Shown: one piece after another, positions 8,401-61,620 of the stretch
How positions within the stretch are numbered: the first letter of the stretch is position 1
Layout of the letters: each line of letters starts with the position of its first letter
Assembly: GCF_048418815.1 (NCBI RefSeq)
Contig: NC_133154.1
Coordinates: 260,043-324,042 of the forward strand
DNA: 64,000 bases
Direction of reading: 5' to 3'
From: Hemitrygon akajei
Taxonomy: Eukaryota
Program-made: the position numbers and the translations under genes
Notes under the pieces: model-generated
The model's database searches: none
Told to the model about the DNA's origin: nothing
The model's input: only the letters and a program-made list of their open reading frames with translations

Positions 8401-8995
8401 GAATGGTTGGGATAAAGAAGGACAGAGAGACCTCGGACTACAAGGGTAGGAAGCACACTGAATGTAGGGAGTCTAGAGGATTAGGGTGACCTTGGTGTAC
8501 AGGGTAGGACACTCACTGTGAATGGTTGGGATAAAGAAGGACAGAGAGACCTCGGACTACAAGGGTAGGAAGCACACTGAATGTAGGGTGTCTAGAGGAT
8601 TAGGGTGACCTTGGTGTACAGGGTAGGACACTCACTGTGAATGGTTGGGATAAAGAAGGACAGAGAGACCTCGGACTACAAGGGTAGGAAGCACACTGAA
8701 TGTAGGGTGTCTAGAGGATTAGGGTGACCTTGGTGTACAGGGTAGGACACTCACTGTGAATGGTTGGGATAAAGAAGGACAGAGAGACCTCGGACTACAA
8801 GGGTAGGAAGCACACTGAATGTAGGGAGTCTAGAGGATTAGGGTGACCTTGGTGTACAGGGTAGGACACTCACTGTGAATGGTTGGGATAAAGAAGGACA
8901 GAGAGACCTCGGACTACAAGGGTAGGAAGCACACTGAATGTAGGGTGTCTAGAGGATTAGGGTGACCTTGGCGTATAAGGGTTGGACACACACTG
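5500..8995 (+). repeat. 61-bp satellite array (~57 units), consensus about gtacaagggtaggacacacactgtgaatggtggggagtgtcgagggacagagggacctcggt
   Basis: Visible periodicity across 3.5 kb. The same family, inverted, is at 22385-23220 and as a short array at 25190-25335. Confidence 0.85.
8041..8994 (+). repeat. Homogenised higher-order block: 8 near-identical copies of a 119-120-bp dimer of the 61-bp satellite
   Basis: gtgaatggttgggataaagaaggacagagagacctcggactacaagggtaggaagcacactgaatgtagggtgtctagaggattagggtgaccttggtgtacagggtaggacactcact repeats at 8041, 8161, 8280, 8399 and onward with only 1-2 differences, in contrast to the divergent monomers upstream. Confidence 0.8.
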
Positions 8996-9029
8996 TGTAT
9001 GCTAGTTCTCTAGATTTTTCATCCCCAGG

Positions 9030-10490
9030 GTTGAGAAATGAAGAAACAGAGGGATAGGTTTAAGACCTGATGCCATAAGATATAGGAGCAGAATTAAGCC
9101 AAATTGGCCCATTGAGTCTGTTCGGCATTTCATTACACTGATCCACTTTTCCTCTCAGCCCCAATCTCCTGCCTTCCACCCCGTATCCCTTCCTGCGCTG
9201 AGCAACCAAGAATCTATCAACCTCTGTCTCAACTATACATAAAGACTTGGCCTCCACAGCTACCTGTGGCAACAAATTCCACAGATTCACCACGCTCTGG
9301 GTTAAGAAATTGCTCCCCATCTCTGTTCTAAAAGGTCACCCCTCTATTCTGAGGCTGTGTCCTCTGATCTTAGATTCTCCCACCACAGGAAGCATCCTCT
9401 CCACATCCAGTCTATCAAAGTCTTTCACCATTCAATAGGCTTCAATTAGGTCACCCCTCATTCTTCTGAATTCCAGTGAATACAGGCCCAGAGCCATCAA
9501 ACACTCTTCTTATCACAAGCCATTTAATCAAGGAATCACTTTAGTGAACTTCCTTTAAATGCTCTCCATTTTCAGCACATCGTTTGGAATATTGTAAGCA
9601 GTTTTGGGCCTCACCAGTGCCTTACAAAATCTCAACATTAGATCCTTGCTTGTATATTCTAGTCCTCTTGAAATAAATGCCAACATTGTATTTGCCTTCC
9701 TCACCACAGACTCAATCTGCAAATCAATCTTTAGGGAATCCTGCATAAGGACTCCCAAATCCCTTTGCACCTCAAATTTTTGTATTTTCTTTTGTTTTAA
9801 CAAATAGTCAATACTTTATTTCTTCTACCAAAGTGTATGTCCATACACTTCACGACACTGTATTCCATCTACCACTTCTTTGCCTATTCTCCTAATCTAA
9901 GTCCTTCTGTATCCCCTCCGCTTCCTCAAAACTACCTTCCCCTCCACCTATCTTCATATCATCTGCAAACTTTACAACAAAGCCATCAATTCCATCACCA
10001 AAATCATTGACATATAACATAAAAGGAAAGAGTACCAACACAGACCCCTGTAGAGCACCAGTCACTGGCAGCCAACCAGAAAAGGTTCTCTTTATCTCTT
10101 TCTTTTATTTAAGTACACACCATCAATAAATTCTCCTTTGTCTATCCTGCTTGTTATTTCTTCAAAGAATTCTAACAGATTTGCCAGGCAAGATTTTCTC
10201 TTGAGGAAGCCATGCTGACTACGCCTTATTTTATCATGTGCCTCCAAATACCCTTAAACCATATCCTAAACAATCAACTCCAATATCCTAACTGGCCTAT
10301 AATTTCCTTAATGTCAGCAATTTTCCAGTCTTCGGAACCATTCTAGAATCTAATGATTCTTTACTGATGCTTTCACAATCTCTTCAGTCACCTCTTTCAG
10401 AACCCTGGTATGTACGCCATCTGGTCCAGGTGACTTATCTACCTTCAGACCTATCAGTTTCCCAAGAACCTTCTCCCTAGTAAGGGTAAC
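9030..10490 (-). mobile_element. CR1-like LINE, reverse transcriptase domain to 3' end (pseudogene)
   Basis: Minus ORFs 9060-9320 (tail: SVVNLWNLLPQVAVEAKSL), 9555-9803 (RDLGVLMQDSLK...AFISRGLEY) and 10350-10658 (GLKVDKSPGPDGVHTRVLKE). Antisense KFADD motif near 9995. Confidence 0.65.
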
Positions 10491-19269: not shown

Positions 19270-19800
19270 AAACCTAATTTACAGTTTTCTGGTAGGTAGG
19301 TGGCCAAACCTGCACACAATAACAAAGAAGAGAAAATATGCAGATGCTGGAAATCTTTCCAACCAACATCCCATGCAGGACCTTGTCAAGGGCCTTGCTA
19401 AAGTCCAAATAACACCTACTTCCTTCCTTCATCCAGTTTCCTGGTAACGTTTTTCAAAAACTCTCTAAGACTGGTTAGACACAACCTACCACGCACAAAG
19501 CCATGCTGACTATCTCTAATTAGTCCATATTTATCAAAATACTTATATATCTGGTCCCTTAATTACCTTCCAACAACTTTCCCATTATTGGTGTCAGGCT
19601 CAGCAGCCTATAATTTCCTGGTTTATTTATAGAGCTTTTCTTAAACAGTGGAACAACATTAGCTATCCTCCAATTCTCCAGTACCTCATTTGACACTAAG
19701 GATGATTTAAATATTTCTGCTAGGGCCCAGCAAATTCTGCACTTTCCTACCACAGGGTCCAAGGGAACACCTCGGACCCTGTGGGTTGTCAGGAATCTTT
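19270..19800 (-). mobile_element. CR1-like LINE RT N-terminal fragment
   Basis: Minus ORF 19559-19762: ...AEIFKSSLVSNEVLENWRIANVVPLFKKSSINKPGNYRLLSLTPIMGKLLE. Confidence 0.55.
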
Positions 19801-30629: not shown

Positions 30630-31700
30630 GAAAAATAAAAACATAGAAAACCTACAGCACCATACAGGCCCTTTGGCCCACAAAGCTGTGCCGAACATGT
30701 TCTTACCTTAGAAATTACCTAGGGTTACCCATAGCCCTCTATTTTTCTGAGCTCCATGTACCTGTCCAGGAGTCTCTTAAAAGACCCTATCATATCTGCC
30801 TCCACCACTGTCGCTGGCAGCCCATTCCACACACTCACCAATCTCTGCATAAAAGACCTACCTCCGACAGCTCCCCTGTACATACTTCCAAGCACTTTAA
30901 AACTGTGCCCTCTCGTGCTAGCCATTCCAGCCCTGGGAAAAAGCCTTTGACTATCCACACGATCAATGCTTCTCATCATCTTATACACTTCCATCAGGTC
31001 ACCTCTCATCCTCCGTCACTCCAAGGGAAAAAGGCCGAGTTCACTCAACCTATTCTCATAAGGCATGCTCCCCAATCCAGGCAATGTCCTTGTAAACCTC
31101 CTCCACACCCTTTCTATGGTTTCCACATCCTTCCTGTAGTGAGGCAACCAGAACTGAGCACAGTACTCCAAGTGGGGTCTGACCAGAGTCCTATATAGCT
31201 GTAATATTACCTTTTGGCTCCTAAACTCAATCCCACGATTGATGAAGGACAATGCACCATATGCCTTCTTAACCACAGAGCCAACCTGCACAACAGCTTT
31301 GAGTGTCCTATGGATTTGGACCCCAAGATCCCGCTGATCCTCCACACTGCCAAGAGTCTTACCATTAATACTACAAATGTTTGTACATTCTGCACGCACA
31401 AAGCCATGCTGACTATCCTTAATCAGTCTATAGCTATCCAAATACTTATATATCCAGCCCCTTAGAATACCTTCCAATAACTTTCCCATTACTGATGTCA
31501 GATTGTGACATTGGCCTACAGTGTACTGCTTTATGTTTACATCCGTTCTTTAACAGTGGAACAACAATGTCTATCCTGCAATCTGCTGGTACTTCTCCTG
31601 TCACTAAGGATGATTTAAATATCTCTGTTAGGGCCCTGGGAATTTCTGCACTTGCCTCCGTAGGGTCCAAGGGAACACATTGTCATGCCCTGGGGATTTA
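30630..31700 (-). mobile_element. CR1-like LINE, internally deleted (3' terminus with (CATAGAAA)-type repeats to RT start)
   Basis: Minus ORFs 30725-31009, 31016-31489 (…[27 protein letters not shown]…) and 31446-31670 (…TEIFKSSLVTGEVPADCRIDIVVPLLKNG…). Terminus aaaacatagaaaacctacagcac at 30636-30660. Confidence 0.6.
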
Positions 31701-31734
31701 TCCACACTGATTTGCCTCAGGATAGCAAACAACA

Positions 31735-34700
31735 GTTGTCATGGGAGATTTTAACTTCTACATAGATTGGGTGAATCAGGCAACACACACAAAATGCTGG
31801 TGGAACGCAGCAGACCCGGCAGCATCTATAGGAAGAAGTACAGTCATCATTTCAGGCCGAGACCCTTCGTCAGGACTAACTGAAAGAAAAGATAGTAAGA
31901 GATTTGAAAGTGGGAGGGGGAGGGGAAGATCCAAAATGATGGGAGAAGACAGGAGGGGGAGGGATGAAGCTAAGAGCTGGAAAGTTGATTGGCAAAAGGG
32001 ATACAGAGCTGGAGAAGGCAAAGGATCATGGGATGGGAGGCCTAGGGAGAAAGAAAGGGGGAGGGGAGCACCAGAAGGAGATGGAGAGCAGGCAAGGAGT
32101 GATGGTGAGAGGGACAGAGAGAGAAAAAAAGAGGGGGGAGTAAATAAATAAATAAATAAATAAGGGATGGGGTAAGAAGGGGAGGAGGGGCATTAATGGA
32201 AATTAGAGAAACCATCAGGTTGGAGGCTACCCAGCCGGTATATAAGGTGTTGCTCATCTAACCTGAGTGTGGCTTCATCTCGACAATAGAGGAGGCCATG
32301 GATGGACATATCAGAATGGAAATGGGACATGGAATTAAAATGTGAGACCACTGGGAGATCCGGCTTTCTCTGCCAGACAGAGTGCAGGTGTTCAGCGAAA
32401 CGGTCTCCTAGTCTGCCTCAGGTCTCACCAATATATAGAAGGCCACACCGGGGGCACCGGACACAGTATATCACACCAGGACTCACAGGTGAAGTGTTAC
32501 CACACCTGGAAGGACTGTCTGGGGCCCTGAATGGTGGTGAATGAGGAAGTGTAAGGGCAGGTGTAGCACTTGCTCCGCTTACAAGGATAAGTGCCGGGAG
32601 GGAGATTGGTGGGAAGGGATGGGGGGGACGAATGGACAAGGGAGTCACGCAGGGAGTGATCCCTGCGGAAAGCAGAAAGAGGGGGGAGGAGAAAGATGTG
32701 CTTGGTGGTGGGATCCCGTTGGAGGTGGCGGAAGTTACAGAGAATTATATATTGGACCTGGAGGAAGGTGGGGTGGTAGGTGAGGACAAGGGGAACCCTA
32801 TCCCTAGTGGGGTGGCTGGAGGATGGGGTGTGCAGATGTGTGTGAAATGAGACAGATGTGTTTGAGAGCAGAGTTGATGGTGGAGGAAGGGAAGCCCCTT
32901 TCTTTAAAAAAGGAAGACATCTCCTTCGTCCTGGAATAAAAAGCCTCATCCTGAGAGCAGATGCGGCAGAGACGGAGGAATTGCGAGAAGGGGGTGGCAT
33001 TTTTGCAAGAGACAGGGTGGGAAGAGGAATAGTCCAGGTAGCTGTGAGTCTGTAGTAGACATCAGTAGATAAGCTGTCTCCAGAGATAGAGACAGAAAGA
33101 TCAAGAAAGGGGAGGGAGGTGTCAGATGTGGACCAGATAAATTTGAGGGCAGGGTGAAAGTTGGAGCCAAATTTAATGAAGTCAACGAGCTCAGCATGCG
33201 TGCAGGAAGCAGCGCTAATGCAGTCATTAATGTAGCAAGGGAAAAGTGGGGGACAGATACCAGTATAGGCTTGGAACATGGACTGTTCCACAAAGCCAAC
33301 ACAAAGGCAGGCATAGCTGGGACCCATACTGGTGCCCATGGCTACACCTTTAGTTTGGAGAAAGTTGGGAGGAGCCAAAGGAGAAATTATTAAGCGTGAG
33401 GACTAATTCCGCTAGACGGAGGACAGTGGTGGTACAGGTTAGGTCTGGTACAACTGGTCTGGTACAACTGGTTAGGTCTGGTTAGGTTAGGTACAACTGG
33501 TTAGGTCTGGAATCCAAAAAGAAGCGGAGAGCTTTGAGACCTTCCTGGTGGGGGATGGAGGTATATAGAGACTAGACATCCATGGTGAAAATAAGGCATT
33601 GGGGGCCGGGGAACTTAAAATCATTGAAAAAATTCAGTGCGTGAGAAGTGTCACCAAGATAGGTGGGAAGGGATTGAACGGGGGGAGGGGAATAAAACAG
33701 TGTTGAGGTATGCAGAAGTGAGTTTGGTGGGGCAGGAGCAAGCTGAGACAATGGGTCCACTTGGAGAGGCAGGTTTGTGGATCTTGGGTAGGAGGTAGAA
33801 ATGGAAAGTGCGGGGTGTGGGAACTATGAGGTTGGTGGCAGTGGAGGGGAGATCCCCAGAGCTGATAAGGTTGGTGATGGTGTGGGAGACAATGGCTTGG
33901 TGCCACACATTTTAATTCCATGTCCCATTCCCATTCTGATATGTCAATCCAGGGCCTCCTCTACTGTCAAGTGTGGCCTTCTATATATCGGTGAGACCCA
34001 ATGCAGACTGGGAGACCATTTCGCTGAAAACCTACGCTCGGACTGCCAGAGAAAGCAGGATCTCCCAGAGGCCACACATTTTAATTCCATGTCCCAATCC
34101 TATTCTGATATGTCAATCCATGGCCTACTGTAAAAATGAAACCACATTCAGGTTAGAGGAACAACACCTTATATTCCGTCTGGGTAGCCTCCAACCTGAT
34201 GGCATGAATATTGATTTCTCTAACTTCCGTTAATGCCCCTCCTCCCCTTCTTACCCCATCCCTTACTTATTTATTTGTTTATTTTTATTTTATTCGCTCT
34301 CTGTCCCTCTCACAATCACTCCTTACCTGCTCTCCATCTTCCTCTGGTGGTCCCCTCCCCCTTTCTTTCTCCCTGGGCCTCCCATCCCATGATTCTCCCA
34401 CTTCTCCAGCTCTGTATCCCTTTTGCCAATCAACTTTCCAGCTCTTAGCTTCATCCCTCCCCCTCCTGTCTTCTCCCATCATTTTGGATCTTCCCCTCCC
34501 CCTCCCACTTTCAAATCTCTTACTATCTCTTCTTTCAGTTAGTCCTGACAAAGGGTCTCGGCCTGAAACATTGACTGTACTTCTTCCTAAAAGTGCTGCC
34601 TGGCCAGTTGTGTTCCACCAGCATTTTGTGTCAGTTTCTTGAATTTCCAGCATCTGCAGATCTCTTCGTGTTTGGGTGAATCAGGTTGGTCAAGGAAGTC

Positions 34701-55059: not shown

Positions 55060-56400
55060 ATTTGATGGCTCTGGGCCTGTATTTGCTGGAGTTTAGAAGA
55101 ATGGGGTTGGGGTGGATCTTATTGAAGTCTATCTAATATTGAAAGGCCTAGATTAGAGTGAAGGTATAGAGAATGTTTTTATCAGTGGGGGAGTCCAGGA
55201 CCAGATGACATAGCCTCAAATAGTAAAACATCCCTTTAGAACAGAGATGAGGAGGAATTTCTTTAGCCAGATAATGGTGAATCTGTGGAATTTATTACCA
55301 CAGACTGCTGTAGAGGCCAAGTGATTGATCATATTTAAAACAGAGGTAGGTAAGTTCTTGATTAGTAAGGGTGTCAAAGGTTATTGGGAGAAGGCAGGAG
55401 AATGGTGTTGAGAAGGATAATAGATGATTCTTGGTTGAATGGCGGCTGACTCAGTGGGTCAAATGACCTCATTCTACTCCTCTGTCTTATGGTCTGAAGC
55501 AGGGGTTCCCAATCTGGGGTCCACAGACTCCTTGTTTAAGGATATCGTTCCATGGCATAAAAAATGTTCGGGAACCCCTGGACTAAAGAATAGCAATGAA
55601 CAGAAAGACACTGGGATCCAAGTCCACAGCTCCCTGAAAGTGGGAACACAGGATAATTGGGTGGTAAAGAAGCCGTATGGCATAGTTGCCATACGGCAGA
55701 CTGGAAGGCATAGGTGGTGGTGTGGTTCTGTTGGTAAGAAATGGAATTACGTCTTTAGAGAGAGGTGACATAGGGTGAAAGAATGTTGAATATTTGTGGG
55801 TGGAGTTAACAAACTGCAAGGGTAAAAAAACTATTATGGGAATCATATATATAGACCTCCAAACATTAGCCAAAATGTGGGGTTGAGATTGCAAAGAAAA
55901 GGCATGTAATAAGGGTAATGTCACAATTATAATGGGAGGACTTCAATATGCAAGGGGATTGGGAAAATCAGGTAGGTGTCAGATTGCAACAGAGGGAATT
56001 TGTTGAATCCCTATGAGATGGCTTTTTAGAGCAACTTGTGCTTGAGACTACTGGGAGAAAGGCTATCTTAGATAGGGTGTTGTGTTATAATCCAGATCCT
56101 ATTAACATATACAAAATGTTGGAGGAACTCAGCAGGCCAGGCAGCATCTATGAAAAAAAGTACAGACAATGTTTCAAGCCGATCTTATTAGGGAGCTTAA
56201 AGGAACCCTTAGGAGACAGTGATCATAATATGATTGAATTCATACTGCAGTTTGAAAGGGAGAAGCTCACATGTATCTGTATCGCAATGGAATAACAGGA
56301 ATTACATAGGCAAGAGAGAAGAGCTTGCCAAGGTGGATTGGAGGAGGATACAGGCAGAGATGACGGCAGAGCAGAGATGGCGAAGTTTCTTGGAATAGTT
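55060..56400 (+). mobile_element. CR1-like LINE fragments: 3' tail piece (55060-55500) and endonuclease-domain piece (55500-56400) carrying an 88-bp PLE-terminus-derived insert
   Basis: Tail: …GLYLLEFRRMG…FFSQIMVNLWNLLPQTAVEAK. Endonuclease: …YRPPN…GDFN-region…LEQLVLETTGRKAILDRVLCYNPDP[insert]GSLKEPLGDSDHNMIEF. Confidence 0.55.
56098..56185. mobile_element. 88-bp PLE-terminus-derived mini-element (half-hairpin) inserted in a CR1 endonuclease domain
   Basis: acatatacaaaatgttggaggaactcagcaggccaggcagcatctatgaaaaaaagtacagacaatgtttcaagccgatcttattagg matches the PLE terminal sequence at 31785-31890 and interrupts the reading frame of the host LINE. Confidence 0.55.
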
Positions 56401-59094
56401 CACAGGGCCTGGGGTACATCCGTCCGGTCAGGGTGATTTATCCAACTTGATGCTTTACATAAGCTCCAGCACATCCTCTTCTTTAATATCTACATGCTCA
56501 AGCTTTTCAGTCTGCTGCAAGTCATCACTACAATCACTAAGATCCTTAAGTATTTATTAAGTACCTCTGCTATTTCCTCCGGTTCCATACACACTTTCCC
56601 ATTGTCACACTTGATAGGTTCTATTCTTTCATGTCTTATCCTCTTGCTCTTCACATACTTGTAGAATGCCTTGAGGTTTTCCTTAATTCTGCCCGCCAAG
56701 GCCTTCTCATGGTCCCTTCTGGCTCTCCTAATTTATTTCTTAAGCTCCTTCCTAGTAGCCTTATAATCTTCTAGATCTCTAACATTACCTAGTTCTCTGA
56801 ACCTTTTGTAAGCTTTTCTTCTCTTCTTGACTAGATTTATTACAGCCTTTGTACACCACGGTTCCTGTACCCTACCATAACTTCCCTGTTTCATTGGAAC
56901 GTACCTATACAGAACTCTACACAAATATCCTCTGACTATTTGCCATATTTCTTCTGTACTTTTCCCTGAGAACATCTGTTTCCAATTTAAGCCTCTAATT
57001 TCCTGCCTGATAGCCTCAGAATTCCCCTTACTCCAATCAAATGCTCTTCTAACTTGTCTGTTCCAATTTCTCTCCAATGCTATTGTAAAGGAGATAGAAT
57101 TATGATCACTATGTACAAAATGCTCTCCCACTGAGAGATCTGGCACCTGACCAGGTTCATTTCCCAATACCAAATGAAGTACAGTCTCTCTTCTTGTAGG
57201 CTTATCTACATACCGTACTGTGTCAAGAAACCTTCCTGAACACACCTAACAAACTCCACCCCATCTAAACCCCTCGCTCTAGGAAGATGCCAATTGATAT
57301 TTGGGAAATTAAAATCTCCCATCACGACAACTCTTATTATTACATCTTTCCAGGATCTGTTTCCCTATCTGCTCCTTGATATCCCTGTTACTATTGGGTG
57401 GCCTATAAAAAACACCCAGTAATGTTATTGACGCCTTTCTGTTCCTAATCTCCACCCACAGAGACTCCGTAGACAATCCCTCCATGGCGTCCACCTTTTC
57501 TGCAGCCGTGACACTATCTCTGATCAACAGTGCCACGCCCTCACCTCTTTTGCCTCCCTTCCTGTCCTTTCTGAAACATCTAAAACCCAGCACTTGAAGT
57601 AACCAATCCTGTCCCTGAGCCATCCAAGTCTCTGTAATGGCCACCACATCATAGCTCCAAGTACTGATCCACGCTCTAAGTTCATCCACTTTGTTCACAA
57701 CACTACTTGCATTAAGATAGACACATCTCAAGCCTTCGGTCTGAGTGCATCCCTTCTCTATCACCTGCCTATCCTCCCTCTCACACTGTCTACAAGCTTT
57801 CTTTATTTGTGAGCTAACCTCCTCTTCCCCAGTCTCTTCAGTTCAGTTCCCACACCCCCCCCCAACAATTCTAGTTTAAACTCTCCCCAGTAGCCTTAGC
57901 AAACCTCACCGCCAGGATATTGGTTCCCCTGGGATTCAAGTGCAACCAATCCTTTTTGTACAGGTCACTCCTGACCCAAAATAGGTCCCAATGATCCAGA
58001 AATATGAAATCCCTGCCCTCTGCTCCAAACCCTCTGCCATGCATTTATCCTCCACCTCATTCTGTTCCTATTCTCACTGTCGCGTGCACAGGCAGTAATC
58101 CCGATATTACTACATTTGCGGTCCTGCTACTCAACTTCCTTCCTAACTCCCTGTAGTCTTTTTTCAGGAAGTCTTCCCTTTTCCTGTCATTGGTACCAAT
58201 ATGTACTACGTCCTCTGGCTGTTCTCCCTCCCACTGCAGGATATCTTGGACGCAATCTGAAACATCCTGGACCCTGGCACCTGGGAGGCAAACTACTGCG
58301 TCCACAGAATTGCCTGTCTGATCCCCTAACTATAGATTCCTTTATCACTACAGCCTTTCTCTTCCCTTCCCTACCCCTCTGAGCCACAGGGCCAGACCCT
58401 GTGCCAGAGGCACAGCCACTGCCGCTTCCCCCAGGTAGGCTGTCACCCCCCAACAGTACTCAAAAAGTACTTATTGTCAAGGGGTACAGCCACAGGGGTA
58501 CTTTCTAGTACCTGACTCTTCCCCTTCCCTCTCCTGACTGTGACCCACTTGTCTGTCTCCCATGGCCCCAGTGTGACCACCTGTCTATAACTCCTCTCTG
58601 TCACCTCCTTGCTCTCCCTGACTAGGTGAAGGTCATCGAGCTGCATCTCCAGGCCCCCCACATCTGACACCGAACAAAGAAAACTGGCCTCACATGCATA
58701 CTTCCTACCTCACCTCGTCCCGTTACTGCCTGAGCCTGTTGAGCCAAAGCCCTACCACTCTGCTGCCTCTCACTCTGCTGCCCGCTGGATACGGCGGTCT
58801 TCTTTTTAAACCTTTCATGCTCTACTGGCTGACGTCACATGCCTGCGCAGTCTCGCCTCTCTTTAAACTGAGTAGTAAAATAAAAACTCACTTTGCTCTG
58901 AAAAATCAGCCGTTCACTCGCAGCCTTCTTGCTCCGAATTAAAAACCATTGAAGATTACTTGCCTTTTAAAACTTACGTGCTCTACTAGCTGATGTCATG
59001 CGCCTGCGCAGTCTCATCTCTCTTTAACCCGAGTACTAAAAAAACTCCCTTTGCTCTGAAAAATCAACAGTTCATTCACAGCCTTCTTGCTCCG
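56400..59094 (-). mobile_element. CR1-clade LINE 5' part with preserved 5' end: 5'UTR tandem monomers, ORF1 (coiled-coil-like N-terminus plus SGNH esterase), ORF2 endonuclease and linker; 3' truncated at ~56400
   Basis: Minus ORFs 58443-58670 (ORF1 start MSDVGGLEMQLDDLHLVRESKE…), 58187-58453 and 58057-58305 (…VVCLPGARVQDVSDCVQDILQWEGEQPEDVVHIGTNDRKREDFLKKDYRELGRKLSSRTANVVISGLLPV), 57309-57764 (endonuclease: VYLNASSVVNKVDELRAWISTWSYDVVAITETWMAQG…YRPPNSNRD), 56733-57245 and 56490-56699 (linker). Confidence 0.75.
58780..59094 (-). promoter_or_regulatory. LINE 5'UTR: two tandem ~160-bp monomers, each with a CRE-like palindrome (TGACGTCA at 58830-58837; TGATGTCA at 58991-58998) and a GCGCCTGCGCA / GCCTGCGCA (NRF1-like) motif
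   Basis: Self-similarity of 58780-58940 and 58940-59100 (…ctctact.gctga.gtca..gcctgcgcagtctc…tttgctctgaaaaatca…cagccttcttgctccgaatt). Position directly upstream of the ORF1 ATG. Confidence 0.45.
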
Positions 59095-59103
59095 AATTAT
59101 TGA

Positions 59104-59179
59104 ATGGTAGAGCAGATCGATGGGCTAGATGACCTTCTCCTGCTCCTAATTCTTAATTTCCCCATGGGGATGAATAAAG

Positions 59180-59230
<51 letters not shown>

Positions 59231-59232
59231 GT
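59104..59232 (+). mobile_element. Composite tail fragment: CR1 3' piece fused to an L2-type 3'UTR end with (ATCT)~12
   Basis: …tggtagagcagatcgatgggctagatgaccttctcctgctcc (CR1 tail-like), then aatttccccatggggatgaataaagtatc(tatc)n, identical to the L2 end at 54295-54348. Confidence 0.5.
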
Positions 59233-59684
59233 TCTTATCTGTTTTCACTGTGGAAGACACTAGCGGTGTGCCAGAGGTCTGTGAGTGTCAGGGAGCAGGG
59301 GTGAGTGCCATTGCTATTACAAAGGAAAAAGTGCTAGGCAAACCGAAAGGTCTTATGGTGGATAAGTCACCTGGACCAGAAGGACTACATCCTAGAGTCC
59401 TGAAAAAAGTTGAAGAGATAATGGCTGCATTGGTCATGATCTTTCAAGAATCATTTTATTCTGATATGGTCCTGGAGGACTGGAAAATTACAAATGTCCC
59501 TCCACTCTTTAAAAAGAAAAGAAGGTAAAAGAAAGGAAACTATAAGCCAGTTAGCCTAACCTCAGCGGTTAGAAAAGTGTTGAAGTATATTATTAAGGAT
59601 GAGGTTTTGGGGTACTTGGAGATTAATAATAAAATAAGTCAAAGTCAGCATGGTTTTTGTAAAAAGAAATCTTGCCTGATAAAC

Positions 59685-59820
59685 TCAGCAGATCGGGCAG
59701 CATCTGTGGAAACGAACGCGGATGACTGTTCGTTTCCACAGATGCTGCCTGACCTGCTGAGTTCCTCCAGCTTGTTGTATGTGTTGCTTTGACCCCAGCA
59801 TCTTCAGCGTACTTTGTGTT
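59685..59820. mobile_element. PLE-terminus-derived hairpin element (short perfect stem gcagcatctgtggaaacgaacg / cgttcgtttccacagatgctgc) inserted in the CR1 RT domain
   Basis: gcagatcgggcagcatctgtggaaacgaacgcggatgactgttcgtttccacagatgctgcctgacctgctgagttcctccagcttgttgtatgtgttgc, followed by the PLE tail-like tttgaccccagcatcttcagcg. Confidence 0.55.
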
Positions 59821-60516
59821 GCCTGATAAATCTGTTGGGGGTTCTTCGAGGAAGTAACAAGCAGGGTGGACAAAGGAGAGACAGTGAATGTCACTTACTT
59901 GGACTTCCAGAAGGCATTTGATAAGGTGCTACACATGAGGTAGCTTAAGAAGATAAAATCCTATAGTGTTACAGGAAAAATACTGGCATGGATGGAGGAA
60001 TGGCTGACAAGCAGGAGGTAGCAAGTGGGAATAAAAGAGGCCTTTTATGGTTGGCTGCTCCTGTCTACTGGTGTTACTCAGGGGTCAGTATAGGAACTGC
60101 TACTTTTCACATTGTTTGTCAATTATTTAGATAGTGGAATTGATGGCTTTGTGGCAAAGCTTGATGATGATACAAAGATAGCTTGAGTGGTAGATAGTGC
60201 AGAGAAAGCAATGCAATTGCAGCAGGACTTAGACAAATTGGAAGAATGGGCAAAAAAGTGGCAGATAGAATATAGTGTTGGGAAATGTATGATAATACAT
60301 TCTGGTAAAAGTAATCATAGTGTGAATTATTATTTAAATGGGGAAAAGGTCAAACATCAGAGGTTCAGAGGGACTTAGGAGTCCTCGTGTAAAACACCCT
60401 GAAGGTTAATTTACAGGTTGAGTCTGTGGTAAAGAAGGCAAATGCAATGTTGGCACTTATTTCAAGGGGAATAGAATACAAAAGCAAGGAGATAATGCTG
60501 AGCAACACACACAAAT

Positions 60517-60840
60517 TGCTGGAGGAACTCAGCAAACCAGACAGCATCTATGGAAAAGAGTACAGTCAACATTTTGGGCTGAGACCCTTTAACAGGTCCA
60601 GAACTACAGGGCACAGCCTCAAAATTGAAGGACAACCTTTTAGAACAAAAGTAAGGAGAATTTTTTTTTTACCCAGAGAGTAGTGAATCTGTGGAATGTT
60701 TTGCCGCAGGTCCTGCTGAAGGGTCTCAGCCCGAAATGCCAACTGTACTCTTTTCCATAGATGCTGCCTAGCCTACTGAGTTCGTCCAGCGTTTTGTGTG
60801 TGTTGCTTGTATTTCCAGCATCTGCAGATTTTCTCTTGTT
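60517..60840. mobile_element. PLE-terminus-derived inverted-repeat element: ~90-bp arms (60517-60605 and 60708-60800) around a ~100-bp CR1-tail-like spacer, plus PLE tail (60800-60840)
   Basis: Right arm is the reverse complement of the left arm (acacacaaattgctggaggaactcagcaaaccagacagcatctatggaaaagagtacagtcaacattttgggctgagaccctttaacaggtcc). The spacer encodes GHSLKIEGQPFRTKVRRIFF..RVVNLWNVLPQ. Confidence 0.55.
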
Positions 60841-61189
60841 TGAGATAATGCTGAGCCTTTGTAAGACACTAGTCAGGCTGCACATGGAGTATTGTCAACA
60901 TTTTTGGGCCCCATATCTCAGGAAGGATGTGTTGTCATTGGAGAAAATCCAGAGTAGATCCACAAGATTCTGGGACATATGAACAGTGCATATATTTAAG
61001 GCGGAAGTTGACGTTTTCCTGATCAGTCAGAGCTTCAAAGGATATGGCAAGAAGGCAGGTGTATGGGATCAGCCATGATGGGATAGCAGAGCAGACTCAA
61101 TGGGCTGAATGGCCTAATTCTGCTTTCATTGGACAGCTAATTGAGTCTAAGGGTTGGCCTTGACTATATTTCAAAAATATGAAACATCC

Positions 61190-61620
61190 CTACATTCGTA
61201 TTGTATGAAGTTCTGGGTCACCCGACTACAGGAATGATATGGAGGCTTTGGAAAGAGTGCAGAAGAGCTTCACCAGGATGCTTTCTACATTAGAGGGCAC
61301 GAGATATATGGTGAAGGTGGAAAATCATAGTATATGGTGAAATACAGTAAATGGACTTTAATAATAAATTTACTTTGAATTTTGAAGACTTGAGTTGTTT
61401 TCTCTGGAGCAGCGGAGGCGAACAGGAGACTTAATAGAGATTTGTAAGTTTGGGTAGTCTCTGCATAGAGGTATCACCAAGAGGGTACAGTCTCAGGGAC
61501 GAAATGGGGAAGGTTTCCCCACACAGAGAGTTGGTGATAACCAGAAAGTGCTGCCAGCAGAGATGTTGGCATCAAAGCTAGTCACTGATTATAACAGTGG
61601 TTAAGTAGGCAAGATATGCA
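61190..61620 (+). mobile_element. CR1-like LINE tail fragment
   Basis: Translation relics …LHHRNDMEALERVQKSFTRML…LFSLEQRRRTGDLIEICK…FPTQRVGDNQK. Confidence 0.5.

What the first reader, a model, noticed from the sequence alone, without database searches (positions are those of the whole stretch)
56098..60840. Family of short hairpin or half-hairpin elements derived from the PLE terminus, repeatedly inserted inside LINE coding sequence
Copies at 56098-56185 (in a CR1 endonuclease domain), 59685-59820 (in a CR1 RT) and 60517-60840 (in a CR1 tail) share the motif gcaacacacacaaaatgctggaggaactcagcaggccaggcagcatctatgg… with the PLE ends at 31785 and 34640. Two of them form inverted repeats (one with a 22-bp perfect stem, one with ~90-bp arms around a spacer that is itself a CR1-tail piece). 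They look like non-autonomous derivatives (MITE- or SINE-like, or solo pseudo-LTRs) that were mobilised independently. Each insertion splits a LINE ORF precisely, so boundaries can be defined.
Basis: seen in the sequence. Interest (0 to 1): 0.55.

Follow-up and report, generated by a model that had tools for sequence, protein, structure and literature searches.

The report
Truncated two-armed Penelope retroelement insertions
The short hairpin-like repeats are stubs of Penelope-like retrotransposon insertions in a ray or shark genome, and their inverted arms with a one-sided 35-base tail are the already described signature of how these elements integrate, so the finding is real but ordinary.

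Summary
Four insertions carrying the 3' end of a Penelope-like element (PLE) sit in CR1 LINE coding sequence. Each has its own target-site duplication (TSD) of 10-15 bp, and removing each restores the CR1 reading frame at the junction.

They are not a MITE-, SINE- or solo-pLTR-like family.
- Arm lengths and junctions differ in every two-armed copy.
- There is no tRNA head.
- Each two-armed copy carries a ~35-nt "tail" on one arm only; the other arm usually stops at a fixed inner site.

This is the published PLE insertion architecture: strong 5' truncation, an adjacent inverted 5'-truncated copy, and a 30-40-bp tail at one end. It fits the biochemistry of the Anolis element PAc, which cleaves and extends both DNA strands and starts reverse transcription at two internal sites.

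The 2.9-kb element at 31781-34671 is the same architecture at larger scale. The pattern recurs in Mobula and Hypanus loci: 46 copies in 276 kb, and 10 of 10 two-armed units have exactly one tail.

The short window copies belong to a sister subfamily of the PLE at 31781. That subfamily's end is linked to a PLE endonuclease ORF in Hypanus.

A hammerhead-like core is present but decayed or absent in the short copies, and Rfam does not score it.

Unexplained: the one-tail rule, and a pile-up of 5' ends at the edge of the hammerhead-like motif.

The parts
31767..31780 (.). TSD of insertion A, left copy (TTGGGTGAATCAGG)
   Evidence: identical 14-mer at 34672-34685.
31781..33905 (-). Insertion A, left arm. 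A 5'-truncated PLE copy (RT, GIY-YIG endonuclease, 3' UTR) on the minus strand. It ends at the inner site (…TTTTGTGTGTGTTG) and has no tail.
   Evidence: 40% identity, E 5e-102, to P0022, which carries RVT_1 and GIY-YIG.
33906..33971 (+). 66-nt out-of-order piece of the endonuclease coding region at the junction of the two arms of A
   Evidence: I5: 32279-32344 pairs with 33906-33971 as well as with the region near 34074-34140.
33972..34671 (+). Insertion A, right arm. A 5'-truncated PLE copy (endonuclease C-terminus plus 3' UTR) on the plus strand. It includes a decayed hammerhead-like motif at 34539-34577 and the tail at 34639-34671.
34672..34685 (.). TSD of insertion A, right copy
56095..56104 (.). 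TSD of insertion D, left copy (GATCCTATTA)
   Evidence: It matches GATCTTATTA at 56181-56190 in 9 of 10 positions.
56105..56180 (-). Insertion D. A single-armed, tail-less 76-nt PLE 3' end. Its 5' truncation lies inside helix II of the hammerhead-like motif, and it ends at the inner site.
56181..56190 (.). TSD of insertion D, right copy
59672..59683 (.). TSD of insertion C, left copy (TTGCCTGATAAA)
59684..59717 (-). Insertion C, left arm. 34 nt, tail-less. It stops about 15 nt short of the usual inner site and has no hammerhead-like core.
59718..59818 (+). Insertion C, right arm. About 100 nt, starting near the predicted hammerhead cut site. Tail at 59788-59818.
59819..59830 (.). TSD of insertion C, right copy
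60489..60503 (.). TSD of insertion B, left copy (GAGATAATGCTGAGC)
60504..60599 (-). Insertion B, left arm. 96 nt, tail-less, ending at the inner site. It carries a mutated hammerhead-like core (CUGUUAA … AAA) at 60563-60599.
60600..60708 (+). Filler between the arms of B: a piece of CR1 ORF2 3' region (…RGHSLKIEGQPFRTKVRRNFFTQRVVNLWNVLPQ)
   Evidence: 67-80% identity to about 10 CR1 copies in the window.
60709..60841 (+). Insertion B, right arm. 133 nt, with a mutated hammerhead-like core (CUGCUGA) at 60709-60745 and the tail at 60807-60841.
60842..60856 (.). TSD of insertion B, right copy
19324..19380 (-). Tail-only PLE fragment inside a CR1 RT. Its boundaries are not resolved.

Best explanation
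These are dead-on-arrival products of Penelope-like element (PLE) retrotransposition, not a separate mobile family.

Proposed mechanism:
1. A PLE ribonucleoprotein makes a staggered cut in the target. This is shown here by the 10-15-bp TSDs.
2. The 3'-OH of both DNA strands primes reverse transcription of PLE RNA. This is inferred from the PAc biochemistry.
3. One strand starts at an outer site, so that arm ends with the ~35-nt tail. The other starts about 35 nt further in, at …UUUUGUGUGUGUUGC, so that arm has no tail.
4. Both cDNAs stop early, which gives the 5' truncation.
5. Their ends are joined head to head. The join is sometimes direct (C), sometimes through captured filler (the 109 nt of CR1 sequence in B), and sometimes through an out-of-order PLE piece (A).

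The result is an antisense arm and a sense arm with their 3' ends facing outward, flanked by one TSD. When both cDNAs are very short the product looks like a small hairpin. When only one strand is extended the product is a half-hairpin (D).

The short window copies come from a sister PLE subfamily of the element at 31781-34671.
For: PLE identity:
- The left arm of A encodes an RT followed by a C-terminal GIY-YIG endonuclease.
- The best homologues are from Mobula hypostoma and Hypanus sabinus.

One event per unit:
- A single TSD flanks each whole unit, and the CR1 frame is restored on excision.

Architecture:
- In window A, B and C the antisense arm lacks the tail and the sense arm has it.
- In 275.6 kb (window plus 10 ray and shark loci) there are 46 copies.
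- The 3' ends are bimodal: 15 lie at q104-115 and 18 at q136-142 (positions q on a 142-nt consensus of the 3' module).
- All 10 adjacent (-,+) pairs have exactly one tailed arm. An eleventh case was seen by eye.

De novo formation:
- Every two-armed unit has different truncation points and a different junction.

Two separate reverse transcriptions:
- In A, L001 282-453, L003 20723-20910 and L007 7445-11561, each arm holds PLE sequence that the other lacks.

Autonomous parent for the short copies:
- The subfamily-2 end (GAGTTCCTCCAGC) is contiguous with a PLE endonuclease ORF fragment at L003 17327-18352.

Literature:
- PMC8557442 describes high 5' truncation, an adjacent inverted 5'-truncated copy, and a 30-40-bp tail at one end only.
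- PMC4209133 reports dual min-hammerheads 100-700 bp apart on opposite strands, attributed to truncated PLEs.
Against: - No full-length or tandem (pLTR-bearing) copy was sampled. Sequences downstream of 18 tails share nothing. The source element and its RNA ends are therefore unknown.
- The 5' ends of short copies cluster at the 5' edge of the hammerhead-like motif (16 of 29). Both arms of B end within 2 nt of each other there. Random truncation does not predict this; it hints at a defined short template.
- The left arm of C stops about 15 nt before the usual inner site.
- All evidence is from sequence. Nothing about priming was observed directly.
Confidence: 0.85

Rival explanations
1. A discrete non-autonomous element. 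A short RNA of about 100-135 nt, running from the hammerhead-like motif to the tail, is transcribed on its own and mobilised in trans by PLE proteins. It would be SINE-like or a "mini-PLE". The hairpins would be its two-strand-primed insertion products.
For: - The 5' ends pile up at q7-21, the 5' edge of the hammerhead-like motif: 16 of 29 copies truncated within the module.
- This includes copies bounded by a TSD or by filler: L003 344-479, L010 6370-6498, and both arms of window B.
- Both arms of B end within 2 nt of each other and are joined through foreign CR1 filler, as expected if both cDNAs ran off the end of one short RNA.
- In vitro, PAc needs only an RNA segment of about 150 nt around this region (PMC11167929).
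- PLE-derived non-autonomous elements do exist: Chlamys MRC1 (PMC8557442) and retrozymes (bioRxiv 10.64898/2026.07.22.740005).
Against: - There is no Pol III head.
- Many copies have other 5' ends, from q22 to q60 and up to 2.9 kb, forming a continuum with ORF-bearing copies.
- Both subfamilies have ends linked to PLE ORFs.
- The pile-up could equally be an RT stop, or the 5' end of the normal PLE transcript.
Confidence: 0.12
2. Snap-back synthesis. A single target-primed cDNA folds back on itself and self-primes, copying itself to form the second arm. Only one strand of the target is ever used as primer.
For: In window C and in L005 11738-11951 the tailed arm is longer at both ends, so the other arm could be a partial copy of it. 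Hairpin self-priming is a classical RT behaviour (own knowledge).
Against: - In A, L001 282-453, L003 20723-20910, L005 1639-3414 and L007 7445-11561 the tail-less arm contains PLE sequence absent from the tailed arm, or the reverse. Neither arm can be a copy of the other.
- Snap-back does not explain why the second arm stops at one fixed inner site in most units.
Confidence: 0.05
3. A MITE-like DNA element or a solo pLTR. On this reading, terminal inverted repeats are recognised by a transposase, or the copies are remnants left by recombination between the two pLTRs of a full element.
For: Inverted arms and flanking TSDs give a superficial resemblance to a MITE.
Against: - The arms are unequal and asymmetric, with the tail on one side only.
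- TSD length varies from 10 to 15 bp.
- Copy length is not uniform and no junction is shared.
- The arms are the 3' end of a retroelement.
- Copies cover 36-135 nt of a 3' UTR of about 450 nt, not a whole pLTR.
Confidence: 0.02

Closest known systems
Canonical EN+ Penelope-like element insertions with an inverted 5'-truncated partner and a one-sided tail (Evgen'ev and Arkhipova 2005; Craig et al. 2021, PMC8557442; PAc biochemistry, Frangieh et al. 2024, PMC11167929)
   Same: - RT plus C-terminal GIY-YIG ORF.
- Strong 5' truncation.
- Inverted 5'-truncated copy joined head to head.
- 30-40-bp tail at one end only.
- Two alternative 3' ends about 35 nt apart.
- Hammerhead-like motif about 65-100 nt upstream of the 3' ends, similar to the PAc geometry.
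   Different: - Both arms here are truncated to tens of bases, so the product looks like a small hairpin.
- No partial tandem or pLTR was seen in the sample.
- The host is an elasmobranch, and the family is not named in the papers read.
Dual min-hammerhead motifs on opposite strands, 100-700 bp apart, in Schistosoma and other metazoan genomes (Cervera and De la Pena 2014, PMC4209133)
   Same: Paired, oppositely oriented PLE terminal motifs attributed to truncated PLEs. The core has CUGAYGA, an extra base before helix II, a G10.1-C11.1 pair, GAA, and a palindromic ACGU.
   Different: In the window only B holds two cores, and both are mutated. Rfam hammerhead models do not score any copy, intact ones included.
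L1 twin priming (Ostertag and Kazazian 2001; own knowledge)
   Same: Both strands of a staggered target cut prime reverse transcription. The two cDNAs are joined, giving an inverted segment inside one TSD.
   Different: L1 twin priming copies two different, adjacent parts of one RNA and produces an inversion, not a palindrome. Here both arms copy the same 3' region, from two fixed start sites.
Animal non-LTR retrozymes (Cervera and de la Pena 2020, PMC7229834; Li et al. 2026, bioRxiv 10.64898/2026.07.22.740005)
   Same: Short non-coding repeats that are related to PLE pLTRs and carry a type I hammerhead.
   Different: Retrozymes are head-to-tail tandem arrays whose units are bounded by ribozyme cut sites. 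These copies are single or inverted, never tandem, and are bounded by RT start sites and truncation points.
MITEs
   Same: Short, with inverted ends, flanked by TSDs.
   Different: These have asymmetric arms, variable TSD length, non-uniform size, and a retroelement origin.

Membership tests
Penelope-like element (canonical EN+ PLE) | Single ORF with a PLE-type RT followed by a C-terminal GIY-YIG endonuclease | tested here: met
   The conceptual protein of 31781-33905(-) aligns at 40% identity (E 5e-102) over RT and endonuclease to P0022. P0022 scores RVT_1 and GIY-YIG (27.6 bits against a cut-off of 22.6). The window copy itself is too decayed for Pfam.
Penelope-like element (canonical EN+ PLE) | Insertions strongly 5'-truncated, often with an adjacent inverted 5'-truncated copy | tested here: met
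   There are ten (-,+) pairs with 3' ends outward. TSDs flanking the whole unit were found for window A, B, C, L001 282-453 and L005 1639-3414, and more weakly (8 bp) for L003 20723-20910 and L007 7445-11561.
Penelope-like element (canonical EN+ PLE) | [quoted passage not shown] | tested here: met
   The tail is 31-35 nt. 3' ends are bimodal (q104-115 against q136-142). Exactly one tail in 10 of 10 two-armed units.
Penelope-like element (canonical EN+ PLE) | Partial tandem copies forming pseudo-LTRs | tested here: not met
   The 300 nt downstream of 18 tailed ends share no sequence. No tandem copy occurs in 276 kb. This feature belongs to full-length source copies, not to every insertion.
Penelope-like element (canonical EN+ PLE) | Hammerhead ribozyme motif in the terminal repeat | tested here: inconclusive
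   Rfam gives no hammerhead hit at the gathering threshold, at E up to 10 on window copies, or on an intact Hypanus copy. By inspection the features listed for PLE min-hammerheads in PMC4209133 are present (UAGUC-CUGAYGA-A-GGGUCUCGGCCC-GAA-ACGU-C|GACUG), and the core columns are invariant in 19 copies. 84% of cells pair, against 19-48% for slid controls, but covariation does not exceed the shuffles. Cleavage was not tested.
MITE | Symmetric terminal inverted repeats, fixed TSD length, uniform copies | tested here: not met
   Arms are asymmetric, with a tail on one side only. TSDs are 10, 12, 14 and 15 bp. Every junction differs.
SINE | Pol III promoter head derived from tRNA, 7SL or 5S | tested here: not met
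   ARAGORN finds no tRNA in 55800-61200. No Rfam family matches in the window.
Animal non-LTR retrozyme | Head-to-tail tandem repeats, each unit carrying a type I hammerhead | tested here: not met
   Same-strand neighbours are at least 976 nt apart. No tandem continuation follows the tails.
Solo pLTR | A complete terminal repeat left by recombination, flanked by the original TSD | tested here: not met
   Copies cover only the last 36-135 nt of a 3' UTR of about 450 nt, and their 5' ends vary.

The most novel reading that the evidence does not exclude
The in vivo products record two rules of PLE integration that the in vitro work does not explain.

1. The two strands of one integration event never use the same RT start site. 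There is exactly one tail in 10 of 10 two-armed units, or 11 of 11 counting one seen by eye. Unpaired copies are about half tailed. This implies a coordinated, asymmetric two-strand priming complex.
2. Template 5' ends concentrate at the 5' edge of the hammerhead-like motif. This would mean that a module of about 100-135 nt, from the hammerhead to the tail, is a physically discrete and preferentially used template. It would in effect be a minimal non-autonomous PLE, possibly the 5'-proximal module of the PLE mRNA.
Probability: 0.3. Interest if true: 0.45.

Novelty: already known. Interest (0 to 1): 0.2.

Why it matters
For annotation, these small palindromes should be masked as LINE/Penelope fragments. 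They should not be called as MITEs, SINEs or hairpin RNA genes. Their exact TSDs make them clean markers of PLE target sites in an elasmobranch genome.

For mechanism, they give in vivo support, in a distant vertebrate lineage, for two features seen in vitro with the Anolis element: priming from both target strands, and two fixed internal RT start sites.

Two modest quantitative observations go beyond that and could guide experiments on how PLEs resolve their integration intermediate. One is the strict presence of one tail per two-armed insertion. The other is the hot spot of 5' ends at the ribozyme edge.

Tried and rejected
- **Rfam hammerhead.** I ran four scans: the whole window at gathering threshold, then 31700-32100, 34100-34700 and an intact Hypanus copy at E up to 10. 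None gave a hit. The weak SNORD111 and mir-103 matches are chance C-box or stem similarities.
- **First manual hammerhead.** My first drawing had a 3-bp helix III and a cut after UGUA. It had no helix I. I replaced it with the min-hammerhead register of PMC4209133 (cut after ACGUC, 5-bp helix I).
- **Covariation.** Covariation for that structure was not above the shuffles.
- **One-RNA model.** I tested a model in which the tailed cDNA trails and displaces the tail-less one. It predicts that the tail-less arm is always the longer. The data gave 3 units for, 3 against and 1 equal, so it is not supported.
- **Origin of B's filler.** I asked whether B's CR1 filler was cut out of the host CR1. The host does lack about 400 nt that cover that region, but the boundaries do not coincide with the filler. 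I treat this as probable coincidence.
- **Tandem copies.** A search for tandem or pLTR continuation downstream of the tails found none.
- **Other failures.** One contig look-up (P0006) found nothing. Pfam on the decayed window PLE gave no hit.

Full report
**1. What is in the sequence**

The window is vertebrate-like DNA rich in CR1 LINEs. CR1-related sequence covers at least 39% of it.

A 26-mer from it matches 4 times at up to 3 mismatches, against 0 in 100 shuffles. BLAST with the ends of the large element finds every stated copy. It also finds a tail-only fragment at 19324-19380.

The inverted repeats are as described:
- 36-nt arms at 94%, with a 22-nt perfect run (59682-59717 / 59728-59763).
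- 99-nt arms at 85% around a 109-nt spacer (60501-60599 / 60709-60807).
- 355-nt arms at 92% for the large element.

The spacer is a piece of CR1 ORF2 3' region.

**2. Boundaries**

Each unit is flanked by its own target-site duplication (TSD) (D read).

| Unit | Insert | TSD |
|---|---|---|
| A | 31781-34671 | TTGGGTGAATCAGG |
| B | 60504-60841 | GAGATAATGCTGAGC |
| C | 59684-59818 | TTGCCTGATAAA |
| D | 56105-56180 | GATC[C/T]TATTA |

Removing the insert and one TSD copy joins the CR1 reading frame at each junction. Pfam supports the CR1 endonuclease domain (E 1.4e-4, below cut-off) and the RT domain (72 bits).

**3. What the large element is**

The minus-strand arm of A (31781-33905) encodes an RT followed by a GIY-YIG endonuclease. 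It aligns at 40% identity (E 5e-102) to a database protein that scores RVT_1 and GIY-YIG in Pfam. Its best homologues are from Mobula hypostoma and Hypanus sabinus. The host is therefore an elasmobranch, probably a ray.

A is not one element with two termini. It is two 5'-truncated copies of a Penelope-like element (PLE) joined head to head:
- 2.1 kb on the minus strand.
- 0.7 kb on the plus strand.
- A 66-nt out-of-order endonuclease fragment at the junction.

**4. The small units have the same architecture**

I aligned all arms in the sense orientation.
- The plus-strand arms of A, B and C end with an extra 31-35 nt: TTG.ATTTCCAGCATCTGCAGAT.TTCTC.TGTTT.
- The minus-strand arms of A and B, and the single arm D, stop at …TTTTGTGTGTGTTGC.
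- The left arm of C stops about 15 nt earlier.

The units are therefore asymmetric. One arm carries a tail and the other does not.

**5. Is this general?**

I fetched ten 21-kb loci around PLE homologues from Mobula, Hypanus and Rhincodon. I searched them with a 142-nt consensus of the 3' module and found 46 copies in 275.6 kb.
- The 3' ends are bimodal: 15 at the inner site (q104-115) and 18 at the tail end (q136-142).
- Ten neighbouring pairs have their 3' ends facing outward. In all ten, exactly one arm is tailed. An eleventh case was seen by eye.
- Unpaired copies are about 11 tailed to 9 tail-less. Independent choice would give ten out of ten with a probability of about 0.001.
- TSDs flank whole units in L001 and L005, more weakly (8 bp) in L003 20723-20910 and L007, and flank solo short copies in L003 and L010.

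**6. Tests of the "mobile hairpin family" idea**

- No two two-armed units share truncation points or a junction. The junctions found are a 109-nt CR1 filler, direct joins, overlaps of a few bases, and kilobase arms. A replicating hairpin master would give shared junctions.
- TSD length varies.
- There is no tRNA-like head and no Rfam family.
- Copies cover only the last 36-135 nt of a 3' UTR of about 450 nt, so they are not solo pLTRs.
- Same-strand neighbours are never tandem, so they are not retrozymes.

**7. Mechanism**

Craig et al. (PMC8557442) describe PLE insertions as highly 5'-truncated. They often have an inverted 5'-truncated copy adjacent, which forms inverted repeats, and a 30-40-bp tail at one end only.

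Frangieh et al. (PMC11167929) show that the Anolis element PAc cleaves and extends both target strands. They also show that reverse transcription starts at two adjacent internal sites, and that the tail is the sequence between those sites.

Cervera and De la Pena (PMC4209133) noted paired min-hammerheads on opposite strands 100-700 bp apart.

The window units fit this exactly. A staggered cut gives the TSD. Both strands are primed, one from the outer site and one from the inner site. Both cDNAs are truncated and are joined head to head.

A simple snap-back of one cDNA cannot be the general route. In A, L001 282-453, L003 20723-20910, L005 1639-3414 and L007 7445-11561, each arm holds PLE sequence that the other lacks.

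Priming itself is inferred, not observed.

**8. Parentage**

The module falls into two subfamilies.
- Window A and all ORF-linked copies in the loci carry …GC[G/T]TTCCACCAGC….
- Window B, C and D carry …GAGTTCCTCCAGC….

The loci were chosen with A's protein, so that sample is biased. Even so, a subfamily-2 end is contiguous with a divergent PLE endonuclease ORF fragment at L003 17327-18352. The short copies therefore have a plausible autonomous parent, a sister of the element at 31781.

**9. Hammerhead**

Rfam finds no hammerhead, even in an intact Hypanus copy.

By inspection the ancestral sequence reads UAGUC-CUGAYGA-A-GGGUCUCGGCCC-GAA-ACGU-C|GACUG. It has every feature listed for PLE min-hammerheads in PMC4209133:
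- The extra base before helix II.
- The G10.1-C11.1 pair.
- The palindromic 15.2-16.2 positions.
- A short helix I.

The core columns are invariant in 19 copies. Pairing is 84%, against 19-48% for slid controls, but without covariation beyond the shuffles.

In the window:
- Both arms of B hold a mutated core.
- D holds only the 3' half.
- C holds none.
- Both arms of A hold a decayed core.

**10. What remains unexplained**

- The one-tail rule contrasts with the in vitro report of no strand difference in RT start site.
- The 5' ends of copies truncated inside the module pile up at the 5' edge of the hammerhead-like motif (16 of 29). This includes TSD-bounded copies and both arms of B. It may mark the end of a short template RNA. 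This is the only evidence that favours a discrete non-autonomous unit.
- The host CR1 of B lacks about 400 nt that include the region homologous to B's filler. This is probably coincidence.

**11. Verdict**

The kind of thing is already known. Interest is low, with a modest upside if the two regularities hold genome-wide.

Noticed in passing
window 19324-19380 (-): A fragment of about 40-55 nt consisting almost only of the PLE tail (AAAGATTTCCAGCATCTGCATATTTTCTCTTCTTTG) sits inside a CR1 RT (…FSKALDKVLHGMLVGK…). It may be an insertion aborted between the outer and inner RT start sites. Its TSD was not resolved.
   Followed up: partly
window 33906-33971: At the junction of the two arms of the large PLE unit there is a 66-nt out-of-order copy of the endonuclease coding region, duplicating about 34074-34140. 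It looks like a template jump during joining. L004 9557-9607 shows a similar short inverted internal piece at its 5' junction.
   Followed up: partly
window 60857-61160 (deletion near 60965-60985): The CR1 that hosts insertion B lacks about 400 nt of its 3' ORF2 region. The missing stretch includes the part homologous to the 109-nt CR1 filler inside B. The boundaries do not coincide with the filler, so this is probably chance.
   Followed up: partly
window: 19324, 31781, 56105, 59684, 60504: All five PLE-derived insertions lie in CR1 sequence, which covers about 39% of the window (chance about 0.01). Three of them are in one CR1 remnant (about 55700-61160). A solo copy in L003 (344-479) also sits in a CR1 …HLEYC… motif. 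This may reflect a target preference, or only CR1 density.
   Followed up: partly
window 56400-59230: A 2.8-kb block separates the endonuclease and RT parts of the same CR1 remnant. Its right end holds a tandem duplication of about 185 bp (about 58790-59100), with TGACGTCA-containing units. A (GATA)n microsatellite follows at 59185-59231.
   Followed up: no
window 60762-60841 and all module copies: The most conserved stretch of the motif (ATAGATGCTGCC) contains an ATG preceded by an in-frame TAG. It opens a 27-codon frame that runs to the end of the tail (MLPGLL[S/R]S[S/T]SILCVLL.FPASADFL.F). In PAc the ORF starts inside the hammerhead, so the module may be the 5' end of the PLE ORF. The tail also holds a perfect 10-nt palindrome, ATCTGCAGAT.
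   Followed up: partly
L007 7445-11561: A long two-armed PLE unit in Hypanus. Its plus arm reaches an N-terminal PLE ORF (8679-9428, with a …KPADKGG… motif) and is tail-less. Its minus arm (1.2 kb) is tailed. It is the most complete copy seen and would be useful for reconstructing the family.
   Followed up: partly
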